Source: Naegleria gruberi
Taxonomy: Eukaryota
NCBI GenBank assembly: GCA_000004985.1
Contig: GG738870.1
Strand: one strand, 5' to 3'
DNA length: 64,000 nucleotides
The notes below the pieces were generated by a model. The model was not told the DNA's origin. It worked only from the letters and a program-made list of their open reading frames with translations, and did not search any database. The position numbers and the translations under genes are program-made. Below, one piece after another: positions 5,027 to 62,208 of this stretch (position 1 is the first letter of the stretch; each line of letters opens with the position of its first letter).

Positions 5027-7408
5027 ATGCCAACAATTTATTTCTTCATCTTTTCCTGTATTGTGGCTACCACACAGATGTTTAGTTTAGTTTCGGCTCT
5101 TTCGTTAGAAACAACAATGAAAATAGATGCTAGTCAATCATCATCTTTGAATTATCTATCATCCAATAACAGTTCATCCAATGATAACAGTATTATTAAT
5201 AATTTAACGCCACCCATTGGAGTAATTTTGAATAATTATAACACTTCGGATTTTATAAATCTTATTCTAAACATTACAACAAATATAACAGCCGCACAGG
5301 ACGAATTAGTCATGACTGAAGCAATGCGAACGAATCCAACAATCACAATCATTATCAGAGTGTTACTAACTTTATTTAATTTCTTTCTAATAATTTTGAT
5401 ACTTTCGTTTAGAAAGAAGGAACCAATCAAATCAAAATTTTATATTTCTATGGCGTTGGTATTGGTTAATATCATTGGACACATTCAGGGAATTATTGAA
5501 ATTCTTCCAGGTGCACCTTTATTCTTTCAAAGTTATTGGAATCAGTTTATTTCAGAAAAGTTGACGAAACAAGTTGATGCTCAAACATTTTACAGAAATA
5601 ATTTGAATTCGTATGGTGTTCCAACGTGGCTGGAAAGTTTTGCACTCTTTGAAAACATTTATTGTTTCATTGATGCCTATTTTATTTATGGATGTACTGT
5701 TATTGGATTGGCAATGTATTCGATTCAGATAATTAAACTAATGTTATTGTTGCTGTTGAAAGATAGAAAACAGGCAGTGGCTAGATCATTGGAAGAATTC
5801 AAAAAGAGACAAGTTGAAAAGTTTAAAGATCTCAAATTGAAAGAAGTTTCTTCAGAGACGAATCTTCAAGATCAGAAACCAATTAGTTTGATGAAACGAC
5901 TCTCAAGGAAGATTCTTTTTGTGGAAACAAACACGTCTTCTGAAAATTTGACGAAACAATCAGGTGAATCTTCACCAACCACTAGTGCTAGCTCAGTATC
6001 TAGTGCTCCTTCCACTTCCAATTTATTAGAATCTAATAATTCACAACAATCACAACAACAATTGCAACAAGAATCCTCAGAAGTATCAACTCCAAGATTA
6101 TCTAAAACTGGAGAGAATGATGATTCGTCCAGTTTAGCCTACGAAGATATTGCCCTCGATTTAACAACTGATGAAGATGCACTTTCAACTAGTTACGAAG
6201 AAATTTCAAAAAAGGGAAAATTTGTTAATTTCCTTAAAAAGATTTTAAAATATCAAATTATTGAGCTGAGCTACATTGGATTCTGGTTGACTGTGTGGTA
6301 TATTCTCGTTACAATTGTAATTATTATTCGTACAGAAGACACTTGGAGTAATTTTTTCATTTCTTGGGATTCGTATAGTGGATATTGTCGACATAATGAT
6401 AGAGTTCAGATTGGATATTATTCGATTGCCATCTTGTTCCTAATTTTTGTTTTCATTCCCATTACTTTAATATTCGATTTTGTAACTAGTTTAATCAAAT
6501 ATAGAAAAATTATTCGAATCAATAGAGAAAAGAATAGAAAGACAGAAAACTTTCTCATTTACTATTTTTATGAAACTGATCCTTTCGTTTACAGAACCGA
6601 AGTATTGGGAGTATTAATATTGGACTTTATAGTGGTCCTTACCTTTTTAATTGTGCTTCCAATTGGAGTTAACGCAAATTATTCTCAACAATTGGCGAGT
6701 TCAATACTCCTTTCCATTGGATTGAATTTTATTGGAGGTGTACTTTGTAATCCTGGAATTACAATTTCAAGAACTGTGTGGAATTATTTGGTTGAGTTCA
6801 AGACCAAAAGGGCAAATAAGAAAGATTCAAATGATTCTGATACTATATTTTCATTACAGCAATTGATTTCTTCACCAATTTGTTCTGAATCAATTGATTA
6901 TGTACTTTCCCACAAAACTGAAAGAGGTTTATTCTATCAATATCTGAAAGAAGAATATTCTGTGGAAAATCTACTATTCACAGAAGATCTTATCAAATTG
7001 AGAAAGATCCACAACGCACATATCAGAGCCAAAGTAATGAAAATTAAGGAAATGATCAAACTATACCTTTCCAATAGTGATTCAGTGTTTGAACTCAACG
7101 TTCCAACAAAAGTGATTCAACAAGAGTTGACTAATTTTAGGGAATTGATGGCTTTGTTGGATGAATTGAATTTAAAGGCTACTCAACTTCCTCGTGTATT
7201 TAAGGCTGATTCGAATACTAGATATTTTCCAAATATTGATTCGAATAAGGAAGAAAAGTTGAAACAATTAATTTCACAATTGGGTAGTGGTCGAATATTC
7301 ACAAATATTCAATCAGAGGTTTACAAAAACTTGATGGATTCATATTATCGATTCAATAACTCTAGAAAGTGGAAGGACTATATTAAGACTTCTTCTTCGT
7401 CAGCTTAA
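5027..7408 (+). CDS. polytopic membrane protein with C-terminal RGS (regulator of G-protein signalling) domain
   Basis: Listed ORF 4799..7408 begins at a TTG. The first ATG at 5027 (MPTIYFFIFSCIVATT…) gives a signal peptide/first TM. About six or seven hydrophobic helices interrupted by a Ser-rich cytosolic insert. The C-terminal segment SIDYVLSHKTERGLFYQYLKEEYSVENLLFTEDLIKLRK fits the RGS-box pattern (E/S-EN-L-x-F/W). Confidence 0.55.
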   Translation: MPTIYFFIFSCIVATTQMFSLVSALSLETTMKIDASQSSSLNYLSSNNSSSNDNSIINNLTPPIGVILNNYNTSDFINLILNITTNITAAQDELVMTEAMRTNPTITIIIRVLLTLFNFFLIILILSFRKKEPIKSKFYISMALVLVNIIGHIQGIIEILPGAPLFFQSYWNQFISEKLTKQVDAQTFYRNNLNSYGVPTWLESFALFENIYCFIDAYFIYGCTVIGLAMYSIQIIKLMLLLLLKDRKQAVARSLEEFKKRQVEKFKDLKLKEVSSETNLQDQKPISLMKRLSRKILFVETNTSSENLTKQSGESSPTTSASSVSSAPSTSNLLESNNSQQSQQQLQQESSEVSTPRLSKTGENDDSSSLAYEDIALDLTTDEDALSTSYEEISKKGKFVNFLKKILKYQIIELSYIGFWLTVWYILVTIVIIIRTEDTWSNFFISWDSYSGYCRHNDRVQIGYYSIAILFLIFVFIPITLIFDFVTSLIKYRKIIRINREKNRKTENFLIYYFYETDPFVYRTEVLGVLILDFIVVLTFLIVLPIGVNANYSQQLASSILLSIGLNFIGGVLCNPGITISRTVWNYLVEFKTKRANKKDSNDSDTIFSLQQLISSPICSESIDYVLSHKTERGLFYQYLKEEYSVENLLFTEDLIKLRKIHNAHIRAKVMKIKEMIKLYLSNSDSVFELNVPTKVIQQELTNFRELMALLDELNLKATQLPRVFKADSNTRYFPNIDSNKEEKLKQLISQLGSGRIFTNIQSEVYKNLMDSYYRFNNSRKWKDYIKTSSSSA

Positions 7409-7617
7409 CATCTTTGACAAATATTTTTTCAAAAATTATAATTAACGAGACGAAGAATAAGATGAATTTAATTTCACGGCACTTACATCCATACATCCAC
7501 ACGGAAGTGAAGTTACATTTTGAAGACCTGCAACAAAAAGGAGCTCCAAAACAAATTACAGCTCAAATAGAATAAAAACAAGTTGTTTTCAAATAAAAAG
7601 TGCAAAAACAAAAGGGC

Positions 7618-7706
7618 AGGGTGGTACGTGGATCGAACACGTGACCATCGGATGTCTGCTGCAAATAACTTTGCAATCCGGTGCTCTACCGCTGAGCTAA
7701 CCACCC
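7618..7706 (-). tRNA. tRNA-Cys (anticodon GCA) with 17-nt intron
   Basis: Reverse complement folds as GGGTGGT|TA|GCTC|AGCGGTA|GAGC|A|CCGGA|TTGCAA[intron AGTTATTTGCAGCAGAC]A|TCCGA|TGGTC|ACGTG|TTCGATC|CACGT|ACCACCC|T. Acceptor, D and T stems pair fully; the anticodon stem has a C27–A43 mismatch. Anticodon is GCA. Intron sits at the canonical 37/38 position. T-run lies downstream on the gene strand. Sequence identical to the copy at 14256. Confidence 0.8.
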
Positions 7707-7980
7707 ATTCAATATTCTTCAAAACTTAATCTAATACGACAATAGAAAACAGCAAATTTTTATAATACATACTTAAATGAAAGTAAGTAAGGAAAGTAAT
7801 ACTTACTCAGCTGAGTCTAAGTTTCAAATATAAGGAAAATTCAAAAAGTAATTATGTCTCATTGAATCTCACCGTTTATTTGTATCAACTCCCTGCCAAA
7901 ATCTGTGAGAAATTTGTAGTGTTACTCAACTTTCGTTCAATGAACTGTGAAGAAGAACCAAATCCAATAAATTTGAAAAA

Positions 7981-12214: not shown

Positions 12215-14126
12215 ATGGCCTCATCACCAACGAGAATTTTTGAAGCCTACGAGATGGTAAGCTATATTGGTGAAATTGAGAACCAACGCACACAATCAAT
12301 ACAAGAACTTGTACCTCTAAAATCAAAAGATCATAACATTTACCTTATGAACGACAGATATGAAATTGATTGTTTCCCTATCGATTATTCTATTCATATT
12401 AAAACGCATCCATTCAAATTTTCCCAACTAAAGAACTCCTCTGAAGCAGATATTTGGAAATTGATCAAGAGGATTGCTCTTCAACAAAGTATATTTAAAG
12501 GTAGATTTATTGGTTTGAAAGGAAAAGACGGCAAGGTTAAAACTGTATCCGAATTTAAGGCTTTTATAGATCAAGTTGATATTCAGACAGATTTAAAGTT
12601 CGTTATTGTTAAAGAGAGGTTTGAGAATGTATTTTCTACCATTGAATCAAGGCTAAACCAATTAAATTCCTTAGAAAGGAACACTTGTTCTATTATCACC
12701 CTGGCAAAGGACGCTTCCTTTAACTCAAGTGCATTGGAAGGGAATATTCACAGCAACAAAGGACGAATTTGAGGCATCCGAAAGTGAGGATGAAGATTCA
12801 CTCACTCCTGATACTAAAGAAATACGAGTACTGAGAAAGATGCATGAAAGATTCCAAACCGATATAATTAATGGAAAGGTTTATACACTCGATGAAGAGC
12901 TACTGTTGACAGAACACAAAGAAATGGCCATTGGTCTTGGAGAGGGTGCAGGAAGATTCAGAAGTGTAAATGTTTATGTTAAAGGATCTTCCCACAAGTT
13001 TGCACCTTATGATACAATAAGAAGCAAGTTGGCATCTGTTTTAATGATTTTCTACTCCAAAATCACCAGCGCCAATTCGTTGGAAGAACGAATTAAGGCT
13101 GCAATTTACATCCATTATGAAATTGTTAACATTCACCCATTCAGAGATTACAACGGAAGAATGGCAAGATATATCATGAACTTAGTTTTATTTCAGTATT
13201 GTAGAATTCCTCCGGTATCAATATTGCCAGGAATTAAGGATGAATACTTTGCTTCTGTTCGCGAAGTTGATAAGAATAATGATTATAGATTTATTACTAC
13301 CATCATTACAGAATCAATTATTAGGTCTATCGAAAAAGCATTTTATTATACTCACATACAGGATGGAATGGGACTATTGTTGAATAGATTTACATTGGAT
13401 CAGCTTGCAGAATATTGTAAATCTAACAACATTACCACTGACGAAAGTTCCAAGTCTAAAATGATAAGAGATATTTTGAGACTCTCTAATAGAATTGGAG
13501 AATTTGCTTTTGTGTTGGAGTTGGAAAAACAAGATTTACAATCAATAGTTCTGGACAATAATCTATCCACTTTTTCTCAATTGCAAACATGTTTAATAGA
13601 GATTTTATTTTCTAATCCAAACACCAACCTGAAACAATTTCTCAATTTATTCAACACTGAAGGTTTAGACAGATTCTTGGAATTATTAAGAATGAAAGAT
13701 GAGTCCTCTAAGGAAGGAAAAATTACAGCTATCATGGAAGAAGTATTAATATTAGGTATGAGAATCGGATTTGGTAATATGAAGGAAGAGAACATCTCTT
13801 CTTTATGCAATGAACTGAAGATCTCTTCATTTGGTTCCAAACTTGAAAACATTCATTCAATGTTTGGTGTTATTTATCCTCATTACTCTAGATTTAAACA
13901 TTTATTATTTAAAGAATACATTTGGGATATTAAGAAAGGTATTTCTTTGGAACAATTATATCAATTTCATTACTATGACTTACTCGTTTATGCAAAAAAA
14001 CAACAATTGAATTTAAAACATAAATCCAAGAAGAGCATTTGTAAGAATATTTTAACCAGTGGTCATATTAAGAGACTTAATGAGAATGACGATTTGTTGC
14101 AAAATCTCAAGAAAAAGAAGTTATAA
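12215..14126 (+). CDS. Fic (Fido) domain protein, putative AMPylase. Two ORFs (12215..12772 and 12729..14126) in different frames.
   Basis: HPFRDYNGRMARYIMNLVL matches the Fic core motif HPFx(D/E)GNGR (D/E-G read as D-Y-N-G here). ORF1 starts at a real ATG. ORF2's listed start is GTG. The frames overlap over 12729–12772. Confidence 0.65.
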
Positions 14127-14255
14127 CCAAATATATTAGGTTTCATTTCACTTATGAATTTGACTCTTTCCAAATTTGCAAACCAAAATATTTAACATAA
14201 AGCAAATTGTCATTATAAATTGTCGTATTAGATTTAGTTTTGAAGAATATTGAAT

Positions 14256-14344
14256 GGGTGGTTAGCTCAGCGGTAGAGCACCGGATTGCAAAGTTATTTG
14301 CAGCAGACATCCGATGGTCACGTGTTCGATCCACGTACCACCCT
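14256..14344 (+). tRNA. tRNA-Cys (anticodon GCA) with 17-nt intron
   Basis: Sequence is identical to the minus-strand copy at 7618..7706, so the cloverleaf is the same. TTTT lies just downstream. The ORF-track entry 14152..14391(-) is a translation through this tRNA. Confidence 0.8.
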
Positions 14345-14739
14345 ACCTTTTGACTGTGCAATTTACTTAAAGGGTAAGATTTTTTTAACATGTTTACAGT
14401 AAAAACATAACGAAATTGATAACTTTACTAATGAGACAAACTTCTTCTCCATTGGACTGTTCATGAATTCATGAAAGTTAAATGTCAACATTGTTGATAA
14501 GTTTGAAATGTAACTTCTAAAGTGGAATGAAAAATAATATTTTGGTAATATTGCGAAAACAGAAGTTTCCCTTATCGTCCATTCATTACTCTAACTTTCG
14601 TCTCATTTCCAATAAGGAGCAGTAAATTTCGAAGAGTCTTTTAATTGCATTGTAATGATGTCAATTAAACATTTAAATATTTGATCACTGATTCTATTCT
14701 TAATTATTCACATTTAAAAAACTACAAACACAATTAACA

Positions 14740-18639: not shown

Positions 18640-20488
18640 GTTGTTGTTGTGGAGTGTGGTGATGGAGTGAAAATCCATTAAATACATAACCTCTATCTCT
18701 ATTGCCATCCAAGAAACGAATTCCACAATTGTTTGGATTAACTTCTGCATCGAACCATTCAGGTTTCAAATCCAACCACTGGTGTTTAAATATTATTATT
18801 AGAAATATGGGATAATGAATTATAATTTACAATTATTTTGAAAGTTCTGATAAAAACTTACCACTGAAAATTGTTAGCAAAATGTAATTTAATTAGAAAA
18901 CTTACTCTGAGTAAAGGCACGAACAGTAACACCGTGAGAAACAATAATGATATCATTAATACCCTCTGTTTCACTATCTGAAATGAGTTTCTCAAATAAT
19001 AATTTCACTCTCTTTGAAACATCAACTGTGTGAAAGAATTATGAATATTAAAAATTACTTGAAAACCTACATCTTGATTCTCCTAATGGAGGACGAGCAT
19101 AAAATCTTCCAAAAAATCCAATGTGCTTTTCAAAATGTTGAAATTCTTGTGGGAATCTCTTATTCAATTCATCTAATGGAACTCCTTCAAATAAACCAAA
19201 TTGTTGCTCCACCAGAAGAATGCTCTCTCTGAATGGTTGTTCTTGTGTTAAAAATTCTTTCAATAAATAACTATTTACCTTTGATCTTGAATTACGTTAG
19301 AGGCCTCAGACATGATAATATTGGCAGTTTCTCTAGCTCTATTGTAGGTCGAATTCCACATTCTAACTCTCAATGGATAGGTAACACTTTCCAATTTTTC
19401 TGATTCATCCTCATCCTCACTCAAATCATTATCAAATTTGAAGTCTGTTGTTTCATTTGAAACAAATTTCAATTCTCTCGAGAATTTCTTTTTTGAAATG
19501 TCTGTATATTTCAGATTTTCTTTTTGAATCTTTTCCCATAATCTCCTATTCATGTCTTCATAGAATCGTTTAATATATACACCAGCCTGTACATATTATG
19601 ATATTTGTGAATAAACACCACTTGACTACTTACAGCTTTTGCTTGTTCTTCACCAGCTTTACTCAATGGAATGGAGTGATCTGATTTCTCTTGTAAAATT
19701 GTCTTGTGTACATTGGTGACACATTGACCGTGTCTCACCAAAAGTATTCTGATATGTCTGGCTTTTTTCTTCAAATGTAAAATGTTCAATTTAATATCCT
19801 TTGGTTCAATTTCCTTACAAATAGGCAGAGAAATGATTGAATTTCTATGTGTATTTCTAGGAGATTCACAAATAGATTGTTTTCTAGTTGGAGAAGTTAA
19901 TTCTGCATTTTGTAATCTCACTGCAGTTGGTGCATTCTCAACATTTTGAGAATTTTCACAATCTACCATAATATTATTATTATTAGTATTTGTATCAGAA
20001 TTAGAGTCGTCCATTTCCACACACTCTGTAAAACTCTCCAAAGATACACTCTTCGGAACTTCGTCATCCTCCAGAGAATCGTAAAACATTTCCTTCAACA
20101 CAATAAATGCAGGTGATTGAGTTATTGAATACTCATCCCATTCCGATCGACCAGATGATGGAATATATAAATTGGACATGATTTCATTCTTTGAATTTTT
20201 ACCACCATCATGCTGTTGATTACTACTAGGTAGTGATAAGGAAGAATGACTTGATGAACTATAGTTTAGGGCTTGTTGTGATGATGAATTATTTGTGGGT
20301 GATGATGATGAAATAACCTCATCATTTAACGATAGAATTGGAATTTCCGATAACGTTGGTGCACTGTTGGTTGTAGGATGATGACTCGGAGTTGATGAAA
20401 CTTCATTGTTTTTCATGTTTTTTTTTGGTGGTTCAACAAATTCAAAATTTTCATCGTTTTGCTTGTTGCTGTTTGCTCGTTTCTTCAT
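18640..20488 (-). CDS. histidine phosphatase superfamily (phosphoglycerate-mutase-like) protein with a long low-complexity N-terminal extension. Multi-exon.
   Basis: RHG catalytic motif (IRILLVRHGQCVTNV) in the exon ending at about 19630. GTAAGT…ACAG introns join downstream exons that encode …STYNRARETANIIM… and …IIIVSHGVTVRAF (second catalytic His, SHG). About four introns, each 45–90 nt. The N-terminal roughly 230 aa are Ser/Asn-rich. Confidence 0.6.
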
Positions 20489-23500: not shown

Positions 23501-24658
23501 AATAATGTATTGAACAAGAACAATGCATAGTATGCATAGTCGAGATTAGATTTTGTCATTCTTTGAATAATATCATAAAATCTGGTCTTTTCTCTCTTGA
23601 CAAGTCTATAGTGACTCAATGCACTGACAACCAAACTAAAACCATGACTTGCCCAACTGGCCATGACAATCAAAATTTGTAAAATATCACAAGCTGCTTC
23701 AATATTTGGAGTATCTAAAATGAGAACCAAGTTTTTCATGGCATCTTTTTCTGCCAAAAATTCTTCAATACCCACATTGGTATTCAACAAGGCCTTCAAG
23801 GCAGCAATACAGAGGGATTGTTTTTCCAAATCCTCTACAGTAGCAACCATATTTGTGGATGTGAGTGTTCCACTTTCGTGCTCAGAGACAGCAGTTGATG
23901 TACCGCCTTGCTCAGAGTTGGATTGGTGATGTTGATGGAAATTTGGTGTATAATCTTCAGAGTCAGAATATTCTCCTTGATCGATTTCCATATTATCGGA
24001 GGCAGGTGTTACATCTTCCTCAGATTGTTGTTTTCTAGAAAGAACATTGGTCATATTCAAACAATGGATCAAATGTTTGATACCTCCTTGCATAATAAAT
24101 TGGTTGACCCATCGAATTGGCTTGTCAACCAAAAGTTCAGCAATACGAGCCAAACGTGCAGAATCATAATTGTGTTTTTCCCATTGAGAAAGGAGTACGA
24201 AAGGAGTATCCTCATCAGCAGTTTGATCATTATCGTTTTTAAAGTAATACAAACGTCTATTGATTATATTGTATTAACATGATTGATTATATTGTAATGA
24301 AACATTTTAAACATAACATCCAAAGAGTTACATACCTGACTTTTTCCTGTACAGTTTTAGTTGCCAATTGTTTTCTTCTGATACTATCTGGTACTCCCAT
24401 TTCCACTAACATTTCATTGAAATTTCCATTGACATCATCGTCATTCCATTGTAATTGTTGTTGGTAGGCAAGAGCATTAAAAGGTTCTCTATTAAAACCT
24501 CCATTATTACTACCACCAATGTTTGATGATGAGTGGGATGGGGAATTATTTGGTGAGTGATGAAGCGCCGAAGATGATGAAGAAGCAGCCTGAATCGTCA
24601 GTTGCTGCGAGTGAGAGAGCGCGGAAGTACTCTTTGATGTATTCTTTTTTGGCGCCAT
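20545..24658 (-). CDS. formin (GBD/FH3 – coiled coil – FH1 polyproline – FH2), two exons
   Basis: Real ATG at 24656–24658 (MAPKKNTSKS…). Intron at about 24257..24335 (GTATGT…AATAG, 79 nt) joins in frame to RLYYFKNDND… The FH1 region has more than 15 tandem GIP(M/P)PPG(M/S)GG repeats (about 21990–22520). The FH2 hallmark region follows (…NYLLDSK-like lasso/knob, GNFLNGQQKKKISFGFKLKSLQKLADTKS). Confidence 0.9.
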
Positions 24659-24985: not shown

Positions 24986-25059
24986 GCAGCGATAGATCAG
25001 TTGGTTAGATCGTAAGCCTAACACGCTTAAGGTCGCGGGTTCAAGCCCCGCTCGCTGTA
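24986..25059 (+). tRNA. tRNA-Val (anticodon AAC)
   Basis: Folds as GCAGCGA|TA|GATC|AGTTGGTTA|GATC|G|TAAGC|CTAACAC|GCTTA|AGGTC|GCGGG|TTCAAGC|CCCGC|TCGCTGT|A. All stems paired, with a G1·U72 wobble. Anticodon loop is CT-AAC-AC. TTTT downstream. ORF 24974..25231(-) is an artefact over this gene. Confidence 0.85.
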
Positions 25060-25428
25060 TCATTTTGTTACACAATGTTAAATCTTTGAACTTGTTTAAA
25101 TTAAAGAACTTTGAATTGTTAGGTTTTACTTTGACAAACTTTATTTTATGAAATTTGTTGAAATAAAAACGCAAAGAAGATGGTGCATTTTTAGATACTA
25201 ATTGTAAGACAAAGCATGATAGAGGACACATATGGTGCTCTTCTCTTGTGAGCTAAACTCGCTGGTGTAATTTGTAGGCATCCTTGAGGATTTGGAAGTA
25301 ATAGCTTGGTCTATTATTAACACCCTTCACATTCCTAGCGTGGCTGTGAATCAAAGTTGGGTTTTATTGGAAATGTTGATTAGGTATTAAGTACCCAAAC
25401 AAAAGGTGTTGGTGAACTAAAAACGTAA

Positions 25429-25517
25429 GGCGGCTTAGCACAGTGGCAGTGCATCAGTCTTGTAGACAGAAATGCTGAGATAACTGAGGGTCGAGGGTTC
25501 AATTCCCTCAGTCGCCT
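25429..25517 (+). tRNA. tRNA-Thr (anticodon UGU) with 17-nt intron
   Basis: Folds as GGCGGCT|TA|GCAC|AGTGGCA|GTGC|A|TCAGT|CTTGTA[intron GACAGAAATGCTGAGAT]A|ACTGA|GGGTC|GAGGG|TTCAATT|CCCTC|AGTCGCC|T. Perfect 5-bp anticodon stem, intron at the 37/38 position, TTTT terminator. A Tyr(GTA) reading was tested and rejected because the stem register then fails. Confidence 0.6.
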
Positions 25518-25538
25518 TTTGTTAATTGATAATCAAGT

Positions 25539-38651: not shown

Positions 38652-39873
38652 ATGAAGATTTGTACTGTTGCCTTGATCGCAACCTTGATGGTTGTTTTTG
38701 CTGTTGCTGCTAATGCTCAACAAAATTTTAATAGATTGCCAAGACTTAATGTTAGAAAGCAAAGCTTTACTGTGTCTGGTATTTCTTCTGGAGCTTTCAT
38801 GGCCCAACAATTTGCTGTTGCTTTCTCAAAGACTGTTACCGGAACTGGTGTTGTTGCTGGTGGTCCATATTATGTAAGTTTTTAAATGAATGGATTCGGA
38901 ATATTAATAATAATTGATATAAAGTGTTCTCTTGGTAACGAATTCGTTGCTCTCGACAGCTGTATGAAGATTCCACAAATGATTGATTTGGTAGGTTTAA
39001 AGATTTTAAAAAACTAATATGAACATTATAATGATACTAAATTGATATTATTCCACCAAAATTAACACATGAAATATTTCCACATATATCATTAATAGTC
39101 AATCATTCAAGACATGATTAAGGAAATGGAATCAACTGGTGCTATCGATCATTCAAGCAATGTTAAGAACCACAAGTTCTACCTCTTCTCTGGTACTGAT
39201 GATTTCATTGTTTTCCAAGGTGTTATGAGAAAGCTCCAACAACAATTGTACACCACTTTCCAAGTCCCAATTTCTAACATTGTTACTGACTTTAAGACTC
39301 CTGCTGTTCACGGTTTCATCACCAATGATTATGGTAATGCTTGTGCTATGTTTGGTAGTCCATTCATTAACAATTGTGGTTTGGATCAAGCTAAGATTAT
39401 CCTTGAAACTGTCCTTTCTACCAAGTTGAATGCTTCTCAACCTATTGATAGAAACCTTTTCACTTTCTCTCAATCTGGTAACTACACTGCTACCAGCTTT
39501 GATGAAAAGGGTTACATTTACATTCCAACTTCTTGTCAAGCTAATCGTGCTCCATGTGTTGTTCACTTGGCTTTCCACGGTTGCAACCAAGGTGTTCAAA
39601 GCGTTGGTGATGTTTTCGTCAAGCATTCTGGTTACCTCAAGTATGCTGAAAGCAATAATATTGTTGTTGTTTTCCCTCAAGTCAGAAAGACTGAATCATT
39701 CTTGGTCAACCCAGAAGGTTAGTAATTATTTAACTTTTCAATTATTTAATTTCAATAATATAGGTTGTTTCGATTGGTGGGGATTCAGTGGTCAAAACTT
39801 TGCCACTAAACAAGGTCCACAAATGAAGGCTATTGCTAACATGCTTCTCGATCTCGGTGTTGATGTTCAATAA
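38652..39873 (+). CDS. secreted esterase, PHB-depolymerase/feruloyl-esterase-like alpha/beta hydrolase family. Three exons.
   Basis: Signal peptide MKICTVALIATLMVVFAVAANAQQ. GxSxG nucleophile elbow (GISSG). CVVHLAFHGCNQG motif typical of the Esterase_PHB family. Intron 1 at about 38874..39098 (GTAAGT…TAATAG, phase 0). Intron 2 at about 39718..39763 (GTTAGT…ATATAG, 46 nt). Both joins are in frame, ending …GCFDWWGFSGQNF…VDVQ*. Confidence 0.7.
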
Positions 39874-61400: not shown

Positions 61401-62208
61401 CTCTCCCAACATGTTGATATTCAAAGTATTGATTATATTGGCTAGATTCTGAATCATTTGCAGACAAAAATTCTGAAGTGAAAATTTCCAAGCTATTAAC
61501 GTGATCTTTTTCCCAGAAATTAGTTTTCCATTTAAAGAAGTCTTGGACAATATTCAATCTGGTGCATTATATATAATGAAAGCAAAAAGACTACAGCACC
61601 ACAGGTTCCCAAGTTGTCTCCAACCTCAGTACTGATGTGGCTCGACGATGCTTAACTTCTCAAATCGGACGGGATGAGGTGCATTCATCGTGATATGGCC
61701 GTAGCCATTAACTCTCACCAAATGTGAAATTTCTTTCAATTCCCTTAAAGCATCTGTTTGCAACAATATTTCTCATCCAATATAATACAGTTTCTGATGT
61801 AACATAATTGTAAATGTTTGGTTATAGATGGAGTTTGTTGTAAGAAATCATCACCACTAGCCAACCATCCAGGTGATGAAGAAAAGCTGACCAACTTGAC
61901 AGGTGCATCCTTAAAATTAATTCTGTAATGTTTGTAAATTCTCAACATGTATTGATAAGGAGCCCAGGTGGCATGAGTAAGGAAAAGATTCTTCTTGTCT
62001 TCACTATACTTGATGAATGCAGTGCATCTTGTGTGAAGGAGTGTATATTTTTCAATAGGTTTCCATTAAATTGGCAGTTGTAAGACTCAACAAGGAGCTT
62101 CTCTTCATTGGGGAGGATGACGAACATGTTGCCAAAGGCTAAAATCGTGCGATTGTTACAATTTGGAGACTCTAGTTTACAATATCTTGTGGTTTGTCCA
62201 CAAAGTAT

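What the first reader, a model, noticed from the sequence alone, without database searches (positions are those of the whole stretch)
12215..14126. Fic-domain gene split across two frames; a 25-nt GT…AG segment would restore the frame
ORF1 (ATG 12215…stop 12772) and ORF2 (open from about 12729) overlap out of frame. ORF2 holds the Fic motif HPFRDYNGRMAR. Excising GTGCATTGGAAGGGAATATTCACAG (about 12729–12753) joins …DASFNS|T|TKDEFEAS… in frame. Either this is an unusually small intron, or the gene carries a frameshift (pseudogene or sequencing error). A Fic AMPylase is a notable gene in its own right.
Basis: partly seen in the sequence, partly recalled or inferred. Interest (0 to 1): 0.5.

Follow-up and report, generated by a model that had tools for sequence, protein, structure and literature searches.

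The report
Frameshifted Naegleria Fic gene, no intron
This is an ordinary Fic-enzyme gene of the amoeba Naegleria gruberi whose reading frame is broken by four extra bases; the proposed 25-base "mini-intron" is in fact the code for the enzyme's conserved self-inhibiting helix, so it is not an intron.

Summary
The sequence facts are right. ORF1 (12215-12772) and ORF2 (12729-14126) overlap with ORF2 in the +1 frame. ORF2 carries HPFRDYNGRMAR. Removing 12729-12753 (GT…AG, 25 nt) joins the frames. The intron reading fails. The window is Naegleria gruberi, and ORF2 from Met 12840 is XP_002676713.1. In the ORF1 frame the 25 nt encode SSALEGN, the Fic inhibitory-helix motif (S/T)xxxE(G/N). A repaired protein aligns in one stretch across the junction to human FICD (TVAIEGN) and to about 340-385-aa 'fido' proteins, in which E175 and G176 are nearly invariant. 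A 77%-identical metagenomic DNA relative (L001) reads …SSVMEGN|AVTKDQFEAS… in a single frame. N. gruberi has four extra bases, ATTC (12746-12749), exactly between those codons. Without them the motif is EGN-TAT-KDE, which fits the family pattern. The segment evolved as coding DNA (dN/dS 0.24-0.27). The GT…AG pair is one of 110 that would restore the frame. Best reading: a recent 4-nt insertion frameshift, giving a disrupted or truncated class II-type Fic gene. A sequencing error is the main rival. The G→Y change in the Fic signature makes "AMPylase" uncertain. Low interest.

The parts
12215..12772 (+). ORF1 (185 aa). It holds the N-terminal region of the ancestral Fic protein, including the inhibitory helix. 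After N177 it runs out of frame through 8 unrelated codons (IHSNKGRI) to a TGA stop.
   Evidence: Residues about 46-177 align with the N-terminal parts of full-length 'fido' proteins. dN/dS against L001 is 0.25-0.27 in this frame and 2-3 in the other frames.
12725..12745 (+). Codons for S171-S-A-L-E175-G176-N177, the Fic inhibitory-helix motif (S/T)xxxE(G/N), in the ORF1 frame.
   Evidence: It aligns to FICD TVAIEGN. E175 and G176 are at least 90% conserved in alignments of 12 and 69 sequences. Of 138 Fic hits, 98 have the motif 90-170 aa upstream of the Fic motif. The motif definition is from PMC3667792.
12729..12753 (+). The 25-nt GT...AG segment proposed as an intron. It is coding sequence for the inhibitory-helix motif plus the frameshift site, not an intron.
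12746..12749 (+). ATTC: four extra bases relative to the closest DNA relative. This is the frameshift. With the preceding GAAT it forms the palindrome GAATATTC.
   Evidence: DNA alignment with L001. L001 reads GGA AAT|GCA GTA ACA AAG in one frame. Removing the 4 nt gives EGN-TAT-KDE, which fits the family pattern EGN-xxT-xxE.
12750..14126 (+). Continuation of the ancestral coding frame (the ORF2 frame): TATKDEFEAS..., the Fic core, a C-terminal extension, and the TAA stop at 14124-14126.
   Evidence: L001 AVTKDQFEASKSE matches codon for codon. The alignment to FICD and the Foldseek matches run through to residue about 364-379.
12840..14126 (+). The CDS of the public gene model NAEGRDRAFT_67987 / XP_002676713.1 (428 aa, 'predicted protein'). 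It starts at the first ATG of ORF2 after ORF1's stop and lacks the N-terminal region and the inhibitory helix.
   Evidence: 100% identity.
12888..13190 (+). Pfam Fic/DOC domain match (PF02661).
   Evidence: ORF2 residues 54-154, E = 1.1e-13.
13134..13169 (+). Fic signature HPFRDYNGRMAR. It is non-canonical, with Tyr in place of the first Gly of HxFx(D/E)GNGRxxR.
   Evidence: Sequence. Of 138 homologues with the motif, 131 have Gly here and only 2 others have Tyr. The consensus is from PMC3667792.
13851..14054 (+). SAP-like motif at the C-terminal end. It is part of a 230-aa tail related to an N. gruberi SAP-domain protein.
   Evidence: It is 40% identical to the SAP region (Pfam SAP at 212-253) of XP_002680558.1. 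The window sequence does not itself reach a Pfam SAP hit.

Best explanation
This is a single, intronless gene of Naegleria gruberi for a class II-type Fic protein. Its layout is an N-terminal domain, then the inhibitory helix SSALEGN, then the Fic core with HPFRDYNGRMAR, then a SAP-like tail, about 635 aa in all. A 4-nt insertion (ATTC, 12746-12749) lies directly after the inhibitory-helix motif and has broken the gene. Translation from ATG 12215 therefore ends at TGA 12772, after 8 out-of-frame codons. The Fic core can only be made from an internal start, and the database model uses ATG 12840. Shown here: the two ORFs are consecutive parts of one family, the position and size of the indel, and the coding-type evolution of the 'intron'. 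Inferred: the insertion is a real and recent mutation (an incipient pseudogene or truncated gene), because both halves are otherwise still open.
For: The window is N. gruberi.

The repaired protein aligns in one stretch, residues 121-364, to solved FICD structures, with SSALEGN over TVAIEGN. It also aligns in one stretch, residues about 46-380, to 340-385-aa metagenomic 'fido' proteins. E175 and G176 are at least 90% conserved.

The spacing from the inhibitory motif to the Fic motif is 137 aa, against a family mode of 133.

An AF2 model of the repaired residues 1-379 is confident across the junction. Its best Foldseek matches are FICD, with E about 1e-10 over about 260 columns.

The relative L001 (77% nt identity) is in frame across the site and lacks exactly 4 nt. 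Without them the N. gruberi motif becomes EGN-TAT-KDE, matching the family's EGN-xxT-xxE.

dN/dS is 0.27 overall and 0.24 for the block containing the 25 nt, against 2-3 in the wrong frames.

No GT donor lies between the motif and ORF1's stop.

A single 4-nt palindrome-forming insertion (GAAT|ATTC) is a more parsimonious event than a base-calling slip (inference).

L001 itself carries two other frame-breaking indels, +2 and -8. No close intact orthologue was retrieved. Both fit a dispensable, decaying gene.
Against: Both halves are otherwise perfectly open (185 and 465 codons in a 33% GC genome). The break is therefore either very recent, not real (an assembly error), or tolerated because the halves still function. 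No reads, ESTs or second assembly could be consulted. Exact-sequence look-ups for ORF1, ORF2 and the annotated protein in the contig collection found nothing. The 4-nt difference could also be a real 3-nt insertion plus a 1-nt error. L001 is a short metagenomic contig of unknown organism and is itself not intact.
Confidence: 0.75

Rival explanations
1. The frameshift is a sequencing or assembly error, or one defective haplotype. The real gene would then be an intact class II-type Fic ORF of about 635 aa, and the database model is wrongly truncated.
For: Both ORFs are otherwise intact, and the N-terminal part shows purifying selection (dN/dS 0.27). All motif spacing is preserved in the repaired protein. 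The repaired protein also gives a confident Fic model.
Against: The difference from the in-frame relative is 4 nt, not 1. The site has no homopolymer run. Removing all 4 nt, not 1, restores the family's EGN-xxT-xxE register. An error would therefore need a real codon insertion as well. No direct read data were available.
Confidence: 0.17
2. An unusually small (25-nt) GT-AG spliceosomal intron at 12729-12753 is removed to give a 629-aa protein.
For: GT...AG termini are present and excision restores the frame.
Against: Excision deletes the conserved inhibitory-helix motif, whose E175 and G176 are at least 90% invariant.

The homologous segment in L001 is 21 nt, in frame, and encodes SSVMEGN. The substitution pattern is that of coding DNA.

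110 alternative GT...AG pairs would also restore the frame. The donor GTGCAT is unlike the GTAAGT/GTATGT donors of the probable introns found in the window, although that scan required a GT[AG][ATC]GT donor by design.

The published mean N. gruberi intron is 203 bp, and 30 bp was used as the minimum for N. fowleri (PMC8296547).
Confidence: 0.01
3. The gene is a functional split or a recoded gene. In one version ORF1 supplies the inhibitory helix in trans to a separately translated Fic core, a class I-like toxin/antitoxin arrangement. In the other, a programmed +1 ribosomal frameshift near 12746-12772 makes the full-length protein.
For: Both ORFs are retained open. Class I Fic systems do encode the inhibitory helix on a separate upstream protein (PMC3667792).
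Against: The frameshift is not conserved, since L001 is in frame here. By inspection, from my own knowledge of the known motifs, no known +1 slippery motif (CUU-AGG-C, GCG-AGU-U, UCC-UGA-U, CUU-UGA-C, AAA-UAA) lies in 12746-12772. There is no unusual downstream RNA structure (z = -0.66). A shift at the TGA would replace the conserved T..E segment with 8 unrelated residues. A eukaryotic ribosome would have to reinitiate after a 185-codon upstream ORF.
Confidence: 0.05

Closest known systems
Human FICD/HYPE and other class II Fic proteins (inhibitory helix N-terminal to the Fic core), e.g. PDB 4U04, 6I7G; SoFic 3EQX
   Same: The repaired protein aligns over about 245 residues, including the inhibitory helix (SSALEGN against TVAIEGN) and the Fic active-site loop. 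The AF2 model's best Foldseek hits are FICD structures. The order of inhibitory helix and core, and their spacing, are the same.
   Different: It has no TPR or transmembrane N-terminus. The N-terminal domain is that of an uncharacterised metagenomic 'fido' family (SIHKGKFLGL block). The signature has Tyr for the first Gly. It has a SAP-like C-terminal tail. The frame is broken right after the inhibitory helix.
Uncharacterised 340-385-aa 'fido (protein-threonine AMPylation protein)' family from metagenomes (P0002, P0004-P0006, P0008, P0009, P0011, P0013-P0015)
   Same: They are 25-32% identical and collinear from about residue 46 to 380, including ORF1's N-terminal domain, the inhibitory helix and the Fic core.
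   Different: All are continuous single ORFs. Most carry a canonical HPFxDGNGR signature (P0005 has HPFANGSGR). They lack the 250-aa SAP-like tail. Their organisms are unknown. One sits on a 49-kb contig of 45% GC whose neighbours include DUF4116 and DUF5857 genes.
Class I Fic toxin-antitoxin pairs (VbhA/VbhT, EcFicA/EcFicT)
   Same: After the frameshift, the inhibitory helix and the catalytic core lie on two adjacent, slightly overlapping ORFs. This is superficially like an antitoxin gene upstream of a Fic gene (PMC3667792).
   Different: Here the arrangement arises from a 4-nt indel inside a class II-type gene in a eukaryote. ORF1 is 185 aa rather than a 60-80-aa antitoxin. There is no evidence that either product is made.
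Tiny spliceosomal introns (Paramecium about 25 nt, Bigelowiella nucleomorph 18-21 nt, Giardia 35 nt)
   Same: Only the length and the GT...AG ends of the 25-nt segment.
   Different: The segment is conserved coding sequence. Naegleria is not known for such introns: the published mean is 203 bp, and the probable introns found in the window are 47-225 nt with GTAAGT/GTATGT donors.

Membership tests
Fic/DOC (Fido) superfamily | Fic domain and fold (Pfam PF02661; helical core around the active-site loop) | tested here: met
   PF02661 scores 52 bits against a cut-off of 24. phmmer to FICD chains gives E = 6e-12. The AF2 model with Foldseek gives FICD at E about 1e-10.
Canonical Fic AMPylases | Strict signature HxFx(D/E)GNGRxxR | tested here: not met
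   The sequence is HPFRDYNGRMAR, with Tyr replacing the first Gly. Gly is present in 131 of 138 homologues and Tyr in only 3, counting this one. Deviating signatures are associated with other activities, e.g. AnkX HxFxDANGRxxV (PMC3667792). AMPylation activity is therefore not established.
Class II Fic proteins | Inhibitory helix with (S/T)xxxE(G/N) in the same polypeptide, N-terminal to the core | tested here: inconclusive
   The motif SSALEG(N) is present at the right distance (137 aa against a mode of 133). In the sequence as it stands, however, it is in a different reading frame from the core. The feature is met only in the repaired protein.
Intact protein-coding gene | One uninterrupted reading frame covering all homologous parts | tested here: not met
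   A +1 frame change sits at 12746-12749.
Spliceosomal intron | GT...AG termini and frame restoration on removal | tested here: met
   This is not discriminating, because 110 such pairs exist.
Spliceosomal intron | The segment is absent from the mature coding sequence: no homologous residues in relatives and no coding constraint | tested here: not met
   The segment encodes the conserved inhibitory motif. L001 has the segment in frame. dN/dS is 0.24.
Spliceosomal intron | Length and donor typical of the organism | tested here: not met
   It is 25 nt with donor GTGCAT. The published mean is 203 bp for N. gruberi, and 30 bp was used as the minimum for N. fowleri. Probable local introns are 47-225 nt with GTAAGT/GTATGT donors, a donor form the scan itself required.
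Spliceosomal intron | Spliced junction seen in RNA | not testable with these tools
   No transcript data were accessible.
Programmed +1 ribosomal frameshift | Known slippery or shift-prone site, a stimulatory element, and conservation of the shift in relatives | tested here: not met
   No known motif was found by inspection of 12746-12772 (own knowledge of the motifs). The downstream RNA fold has z = -0.66. The relative L001 is in frame here.
Pseudogene | A frame-disrupting lesion that is real in the genome, plus loss of constraint or expression | tested here: inconclusive
   The lesion is present. Whether it is real in the genome could not be verified (searches were empty). Historical constraint is evident, and both halves are still open, so any decay is recent.

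The most novel reading that the evidence does not exclude
The 4-nt insertion is real and tolerated. On this reading N. gruberi expresses the downstream ORF (from ATG 12840) as a Fic enzyme that lacks its inhibitory helix and carries an unusual HPFRDYNGR active site and a SAP-like, possibly DNA-binding, tail. ORF1 would be expressed separately and supply the inhibitory helix in trans. That would be a class II Fic gene caught converting into a class I-like two-gene system in a eukaryote.
Probability: 0.05. Interest if true: 0.5.

Novelty: already known. Interest (0 to 1): 0.1.

Why it matters
It matters little beyond annotation. The public model XP_002676713.1 is an N-terminally truncated rendering of a frameshifted gene. 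It should be flagged as disrupted, or corrected to an ORF of about 635 aa if resequencing removes the 4 nt. There is no evidence for ultra-short introns in Naegleria. The gene should not be called an AMPylase without caution, because its signature deviates at a phosphate-binding glycine. The case also shows that a frame-restoring GT...AG pair is expected by chance and must be checked against protein conservation.

Tried and rejected
- **Exact-sequence look-ups.** I searched the contig collection (which includes Logan read assemblies) for ORF1, ORF2 and the annotated protein, hoping for independent DNA or RNA assemblies of the site. Nothing was on record.
- **Word-indexed protein searches.** Two searches returned only the N. 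gruberi model itself, so no annotated close orthologue was retrieved, for example from N. fowleri. This index also missed P0007, so absence is weak evidence.
- **JGI metagenome scans.** A protein-based scan and a conserved 22-mer both found nothing. An IMG/VR scan with the family alignment also found nothing.
- **Paralogues in the window.** None were found (tblastn).
- **Literature.** Searches for the locus tag and accessions, for Naegleria with Fic, and for the ENA project of L001 gave no papers.
- **Other introns.** No GT donor lies after the inhibitory motif. The two homologous frames abut with only 4 nt between them, so any intron model is excluded.
- **Programmed +1 frameshift.** There is no known motif, no RNA structure and no conservation of the shift.
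- **Transcriptional slippage.** There is no homopolymer at the site.

Full report
**What is in the sequence.** ORF1 (ATG 12215 to TGA 12772, 185 aa) and ORF2 (listed from GTG 12729, frame open from 12675, to TAA 14126, 465 aa) are present as described. ORF2 lies in the +1 frame relative to ORF1. ORF2 carries HPFRDYNGRMAR (13134-13169) and a significant Pfam Fic domain (PF02661, 52 bits against a cut-off of 24). The 25-nt GTGCATTGGAAGGGAATATTCACAG is at 12729-12753. Deleting it yields one open frame reading ...DASFNSTTKDEFEAS....

The GT...AG coincidence carries no weight. With donors in ORF1 and lengths of 16-400 nt, 110 different GT...AG pairs restore a single open frame.

**Where the window comes from.** ORF2 from its 38th codon (ATG 12840) is 100% identical to XP_002676713.1 / NAEGRDRAFT_67987, 'predicted protein' of Naegleria gruberi NEG-M. 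The window's GC content (32-37%) fits the published 33% (PMC8296547). ORF1 is not in the protein collection. The public model simply starts at the first ATG after ORF1's stop.

**Why the 25 nt are not an intron.**
- In the ORF1 frame the end of ORF1 reads ...AKDASFNSSALEGN-IHSNKGRI*. SSALEG(N) is the (S/T)xxxE(G/N) signature of the Fic inhibitory helix. This signature defines class I, II and III Fic proteins (PMC3667792).
- I joined ORF1 up to N177-I178 to the ORF2 frame. The resulting protein aligns in a single HMMER stretch, residues 121-364, to solved human FICD structures. SSALEGN lies over FICD's TVAIEGN, and the Fic loop lies over the Fic loop.
- A full HMMER scan of 1.84 billion representatives found 2229 relatives. 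The best full-length ones (P0002, P0004-6, P0008, P0009, P0011, P0013-15; 340-385 aa; named 'fido' where they are named) match residues about 46-380 in one stretch. They cover ORF1's N-terminal domain (the SIFKGRFIGL block against SIHKGKFLGL), the inhibitory helix and the Fic core.
- E175 and G176 are at least 90% conserved in alignments of 12 and 69 sequences.
- Of 138 hits with a Fic motif, 98 have (S/T)xxxE(G/N) 90-170 aa upstream, with a mode of 133 aa. The repaired Naegleria protein has 137 aa.
- An AlphaFold model of repaired residues 1-379 is confident through the junction. Block pLDDT values are 93, 81, 73 and 88 for residues 161-200, and helix 157-174 ends at E175/G176. Its best Foldseek matches are FICD structures, with E about 1e-10 over about 260 columns.
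- Excising 12729-12753 would remove exactly this motif.

**The closest DNA relative locates the lesion.** One hit, P0007, led to a 629-nt ENA metagenome contig, L001. It is 77% identical at the DNA level to 12300-12790. Across the site it reads, in one frame...AKDASFNSSVMEGN|AVTKDQFEASKSE.

The codons on both sides align one for one with N. gruberi. AGT GCA TTG GAA GGG AAT in the ORF1 frame pairs with AGT GTT ATG GAA GGA AAT. ACA GCA ACA AAG GAC GAA TTT GAG in the ORF2 frame pairs with GCA GTA ACA AAG GAT CAA TTT GAG.

Between these two blocks N. gruberi has four extra bases, ATTC (12746-12749). Without them the protein would read EGN-TAT-KDE, the family's EGN-xxT-xxE register. The two homologous frames therefore abut with 4 nt between them. 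No intron of any kind fits, and no GT lies between the motif and ORF1's stop.

Nei-Gojobori counts between N. gruberi and L001 give dN/dS = 0.27 overall. The value is 0.24 for the block that contains the '25-nt intron', and 2-3 in the two wrong frames. The segment has evolved as protein-coding DNA.

**Context for intron size.** The published mean N. gruberi intron is 203 bp. A 30-bp minimum was judged appropriate for N. fowleri gene models (PMC8296547). A crude scan of the window turned up probable introns of 47, 79 and 225 nt with GTAAGT/GTATGT donors, but the scan required a donor of that form. For the 47-nt one, a His_Phos_1 match crosses the junction. The candidate's GTGCAT donor and 25-nt length match neither the published figures nor these local examples.

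**What it most likely is.** It is a class II-type Fic gene disrupted by a 4-nt insertion directly after its inhibitory helix.
- Shown: the position and size of the indel, and the unity of the two ORFs.
- Inferred: that the insertion is a real mutation.

Four points favour a real mutation. The difference is 4 nt rather than a single base. The site is not a homopolymer. ATTC is the reverse complement of the preceding GAAT, giving the palindrome GAATATTC, which looks like a templated insertion. One 4-nt event is more parsimonious than a real codon insertion plus a 1-nt error.

Two further observations fit a dispensable gene. L001 itself has two other frame-breaking indels, +2 and -8 nt. No close intact orthologue was retrieved, although that word index is insensitive.

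Against a long-dead pseudogene, both halves are otherwise open (185 and 465 codons at 33% GC), so the event is recent. A sequencing error or a single defective haplotype therefore remains the main rival, at about 0.17. I could not settle this, because no reads, ESTs or second assembly were reachable.

A programmed +1 frameshift or a functional split into inhibitory and catalytic genes is unlikely. The shift is not conserved in L001. No known +1 motif is present, judged from my own knowledge of the motifs. The downstream RNA has no unusual structure (z = -0.66).

**Is it an AMPylase?** The fold is Fic, but the signature is HPFRDYNGRMAR, with Tyr replacing the first Gly of HxFx(D/E)GNGRxxR. Gly is present in 131 of 138 homologues, and only two others (P0073, P0082) have Tyr. 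Deviations from the consensus are associated with other activities, as in AnkX, which varies at the same position (PMC3667792). 'Fic-domain protein' is safe. 'AMPylase' is not established.

**The C-terminal tail.** The C-terminal 230 aa (residues about 388-614 of the repaired protein) are 37% identical to N. gruberi XP_002680558.1, a SAP-domain protein. The last SAP-like motif (13851-14054) is 40% identical to that protein's Pfam-SAP region.

**Verdict.** This is an ordinary disrupted gene, or possibly a mis-assembled one. The exotic reading, a 25-nt intron, is refuted by protein conservation and by a collinear relative. Interest is low. The practical outcome is an annotation correction.

Noticed in passing
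window 12742-12749: The four extra bases ATTC are the reverse complement of the preceding GAAT, so the frameshift site is a perfect 8-nt palindrome, GAATATTC. This looks like a templated or hairpin-type insertion footprint.
   Followed up: no
window 14256-14344 (+) and 7618-7706 (-): Two copies of an intron-containing tRNA gene (anticodon region reads GCA, so Cys) lie in inverted orientation. Rfam scores both at 54.7 bits, and ARAGORN missed both. They sit inside 148-nt inverted arms (7611-7758 and 14204-14351, 93% complementary) that bracket a 6.4-kb stretch including the Fic gene.
   Followed up: partly
L001 (ENA ERZ929261 contig, 629 nt), positions about 228 and about 500: The metagenomic relative of the Fic gene's 5' half is in frame at the N. 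gruberi frameshift site. It has two other frame-breaking indels (+2 and -8 nt) relative to N. gruberi ORF1, so it looks disrupted too, at different places.
   Followed up: partly
window 19587-19633 (-), 24257-24335 (-), 38874-39098 (+): These are probable spliceosomal introns of 47, 79 and 225 nt with GTAAGT/GTATGT donors. They lie in a histidine-phosphatase-like gene, a formin-like gene (Drf_GBD, FH1 prolines) and an unidentified gene. Only the 47-nt one has homology support across the junction.
   Followed up: partly
window 61588-61706 (-); 24986-25059 (+); 25428-25518 (+): There is a 5S rRNA gene (105 bits). There are also tRNA-Val(AAC) and an intron-containing tRNA-Thr(TGT) about 370 nt apart.
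   Followed up: no
L002 (JGI 3300051796 contig, 49 kb), 6001-7158 and neighbours: One of the closest full-length relatives of the Naegleria Fic protein (P0009) sits on a contig of 45% GC. Most neighbouring genes have no Pfam hit, apart from a DUF4116-repeat protein and a DUF5857 protein. The contig could come from a protist or a giant virus, which hints at the source of this Fic family.
   Followed up: partly
window 13350-14123 (+): The Fic core is followed by a tail of about 250 aa made of repeated helical SAP-like units. The tail is related to a separate N. gruberi SAP-domain protein (XP_002680558.1). I did not see this Fic-plus-SAP-like architecture in the other family members.
   Followed up: partly
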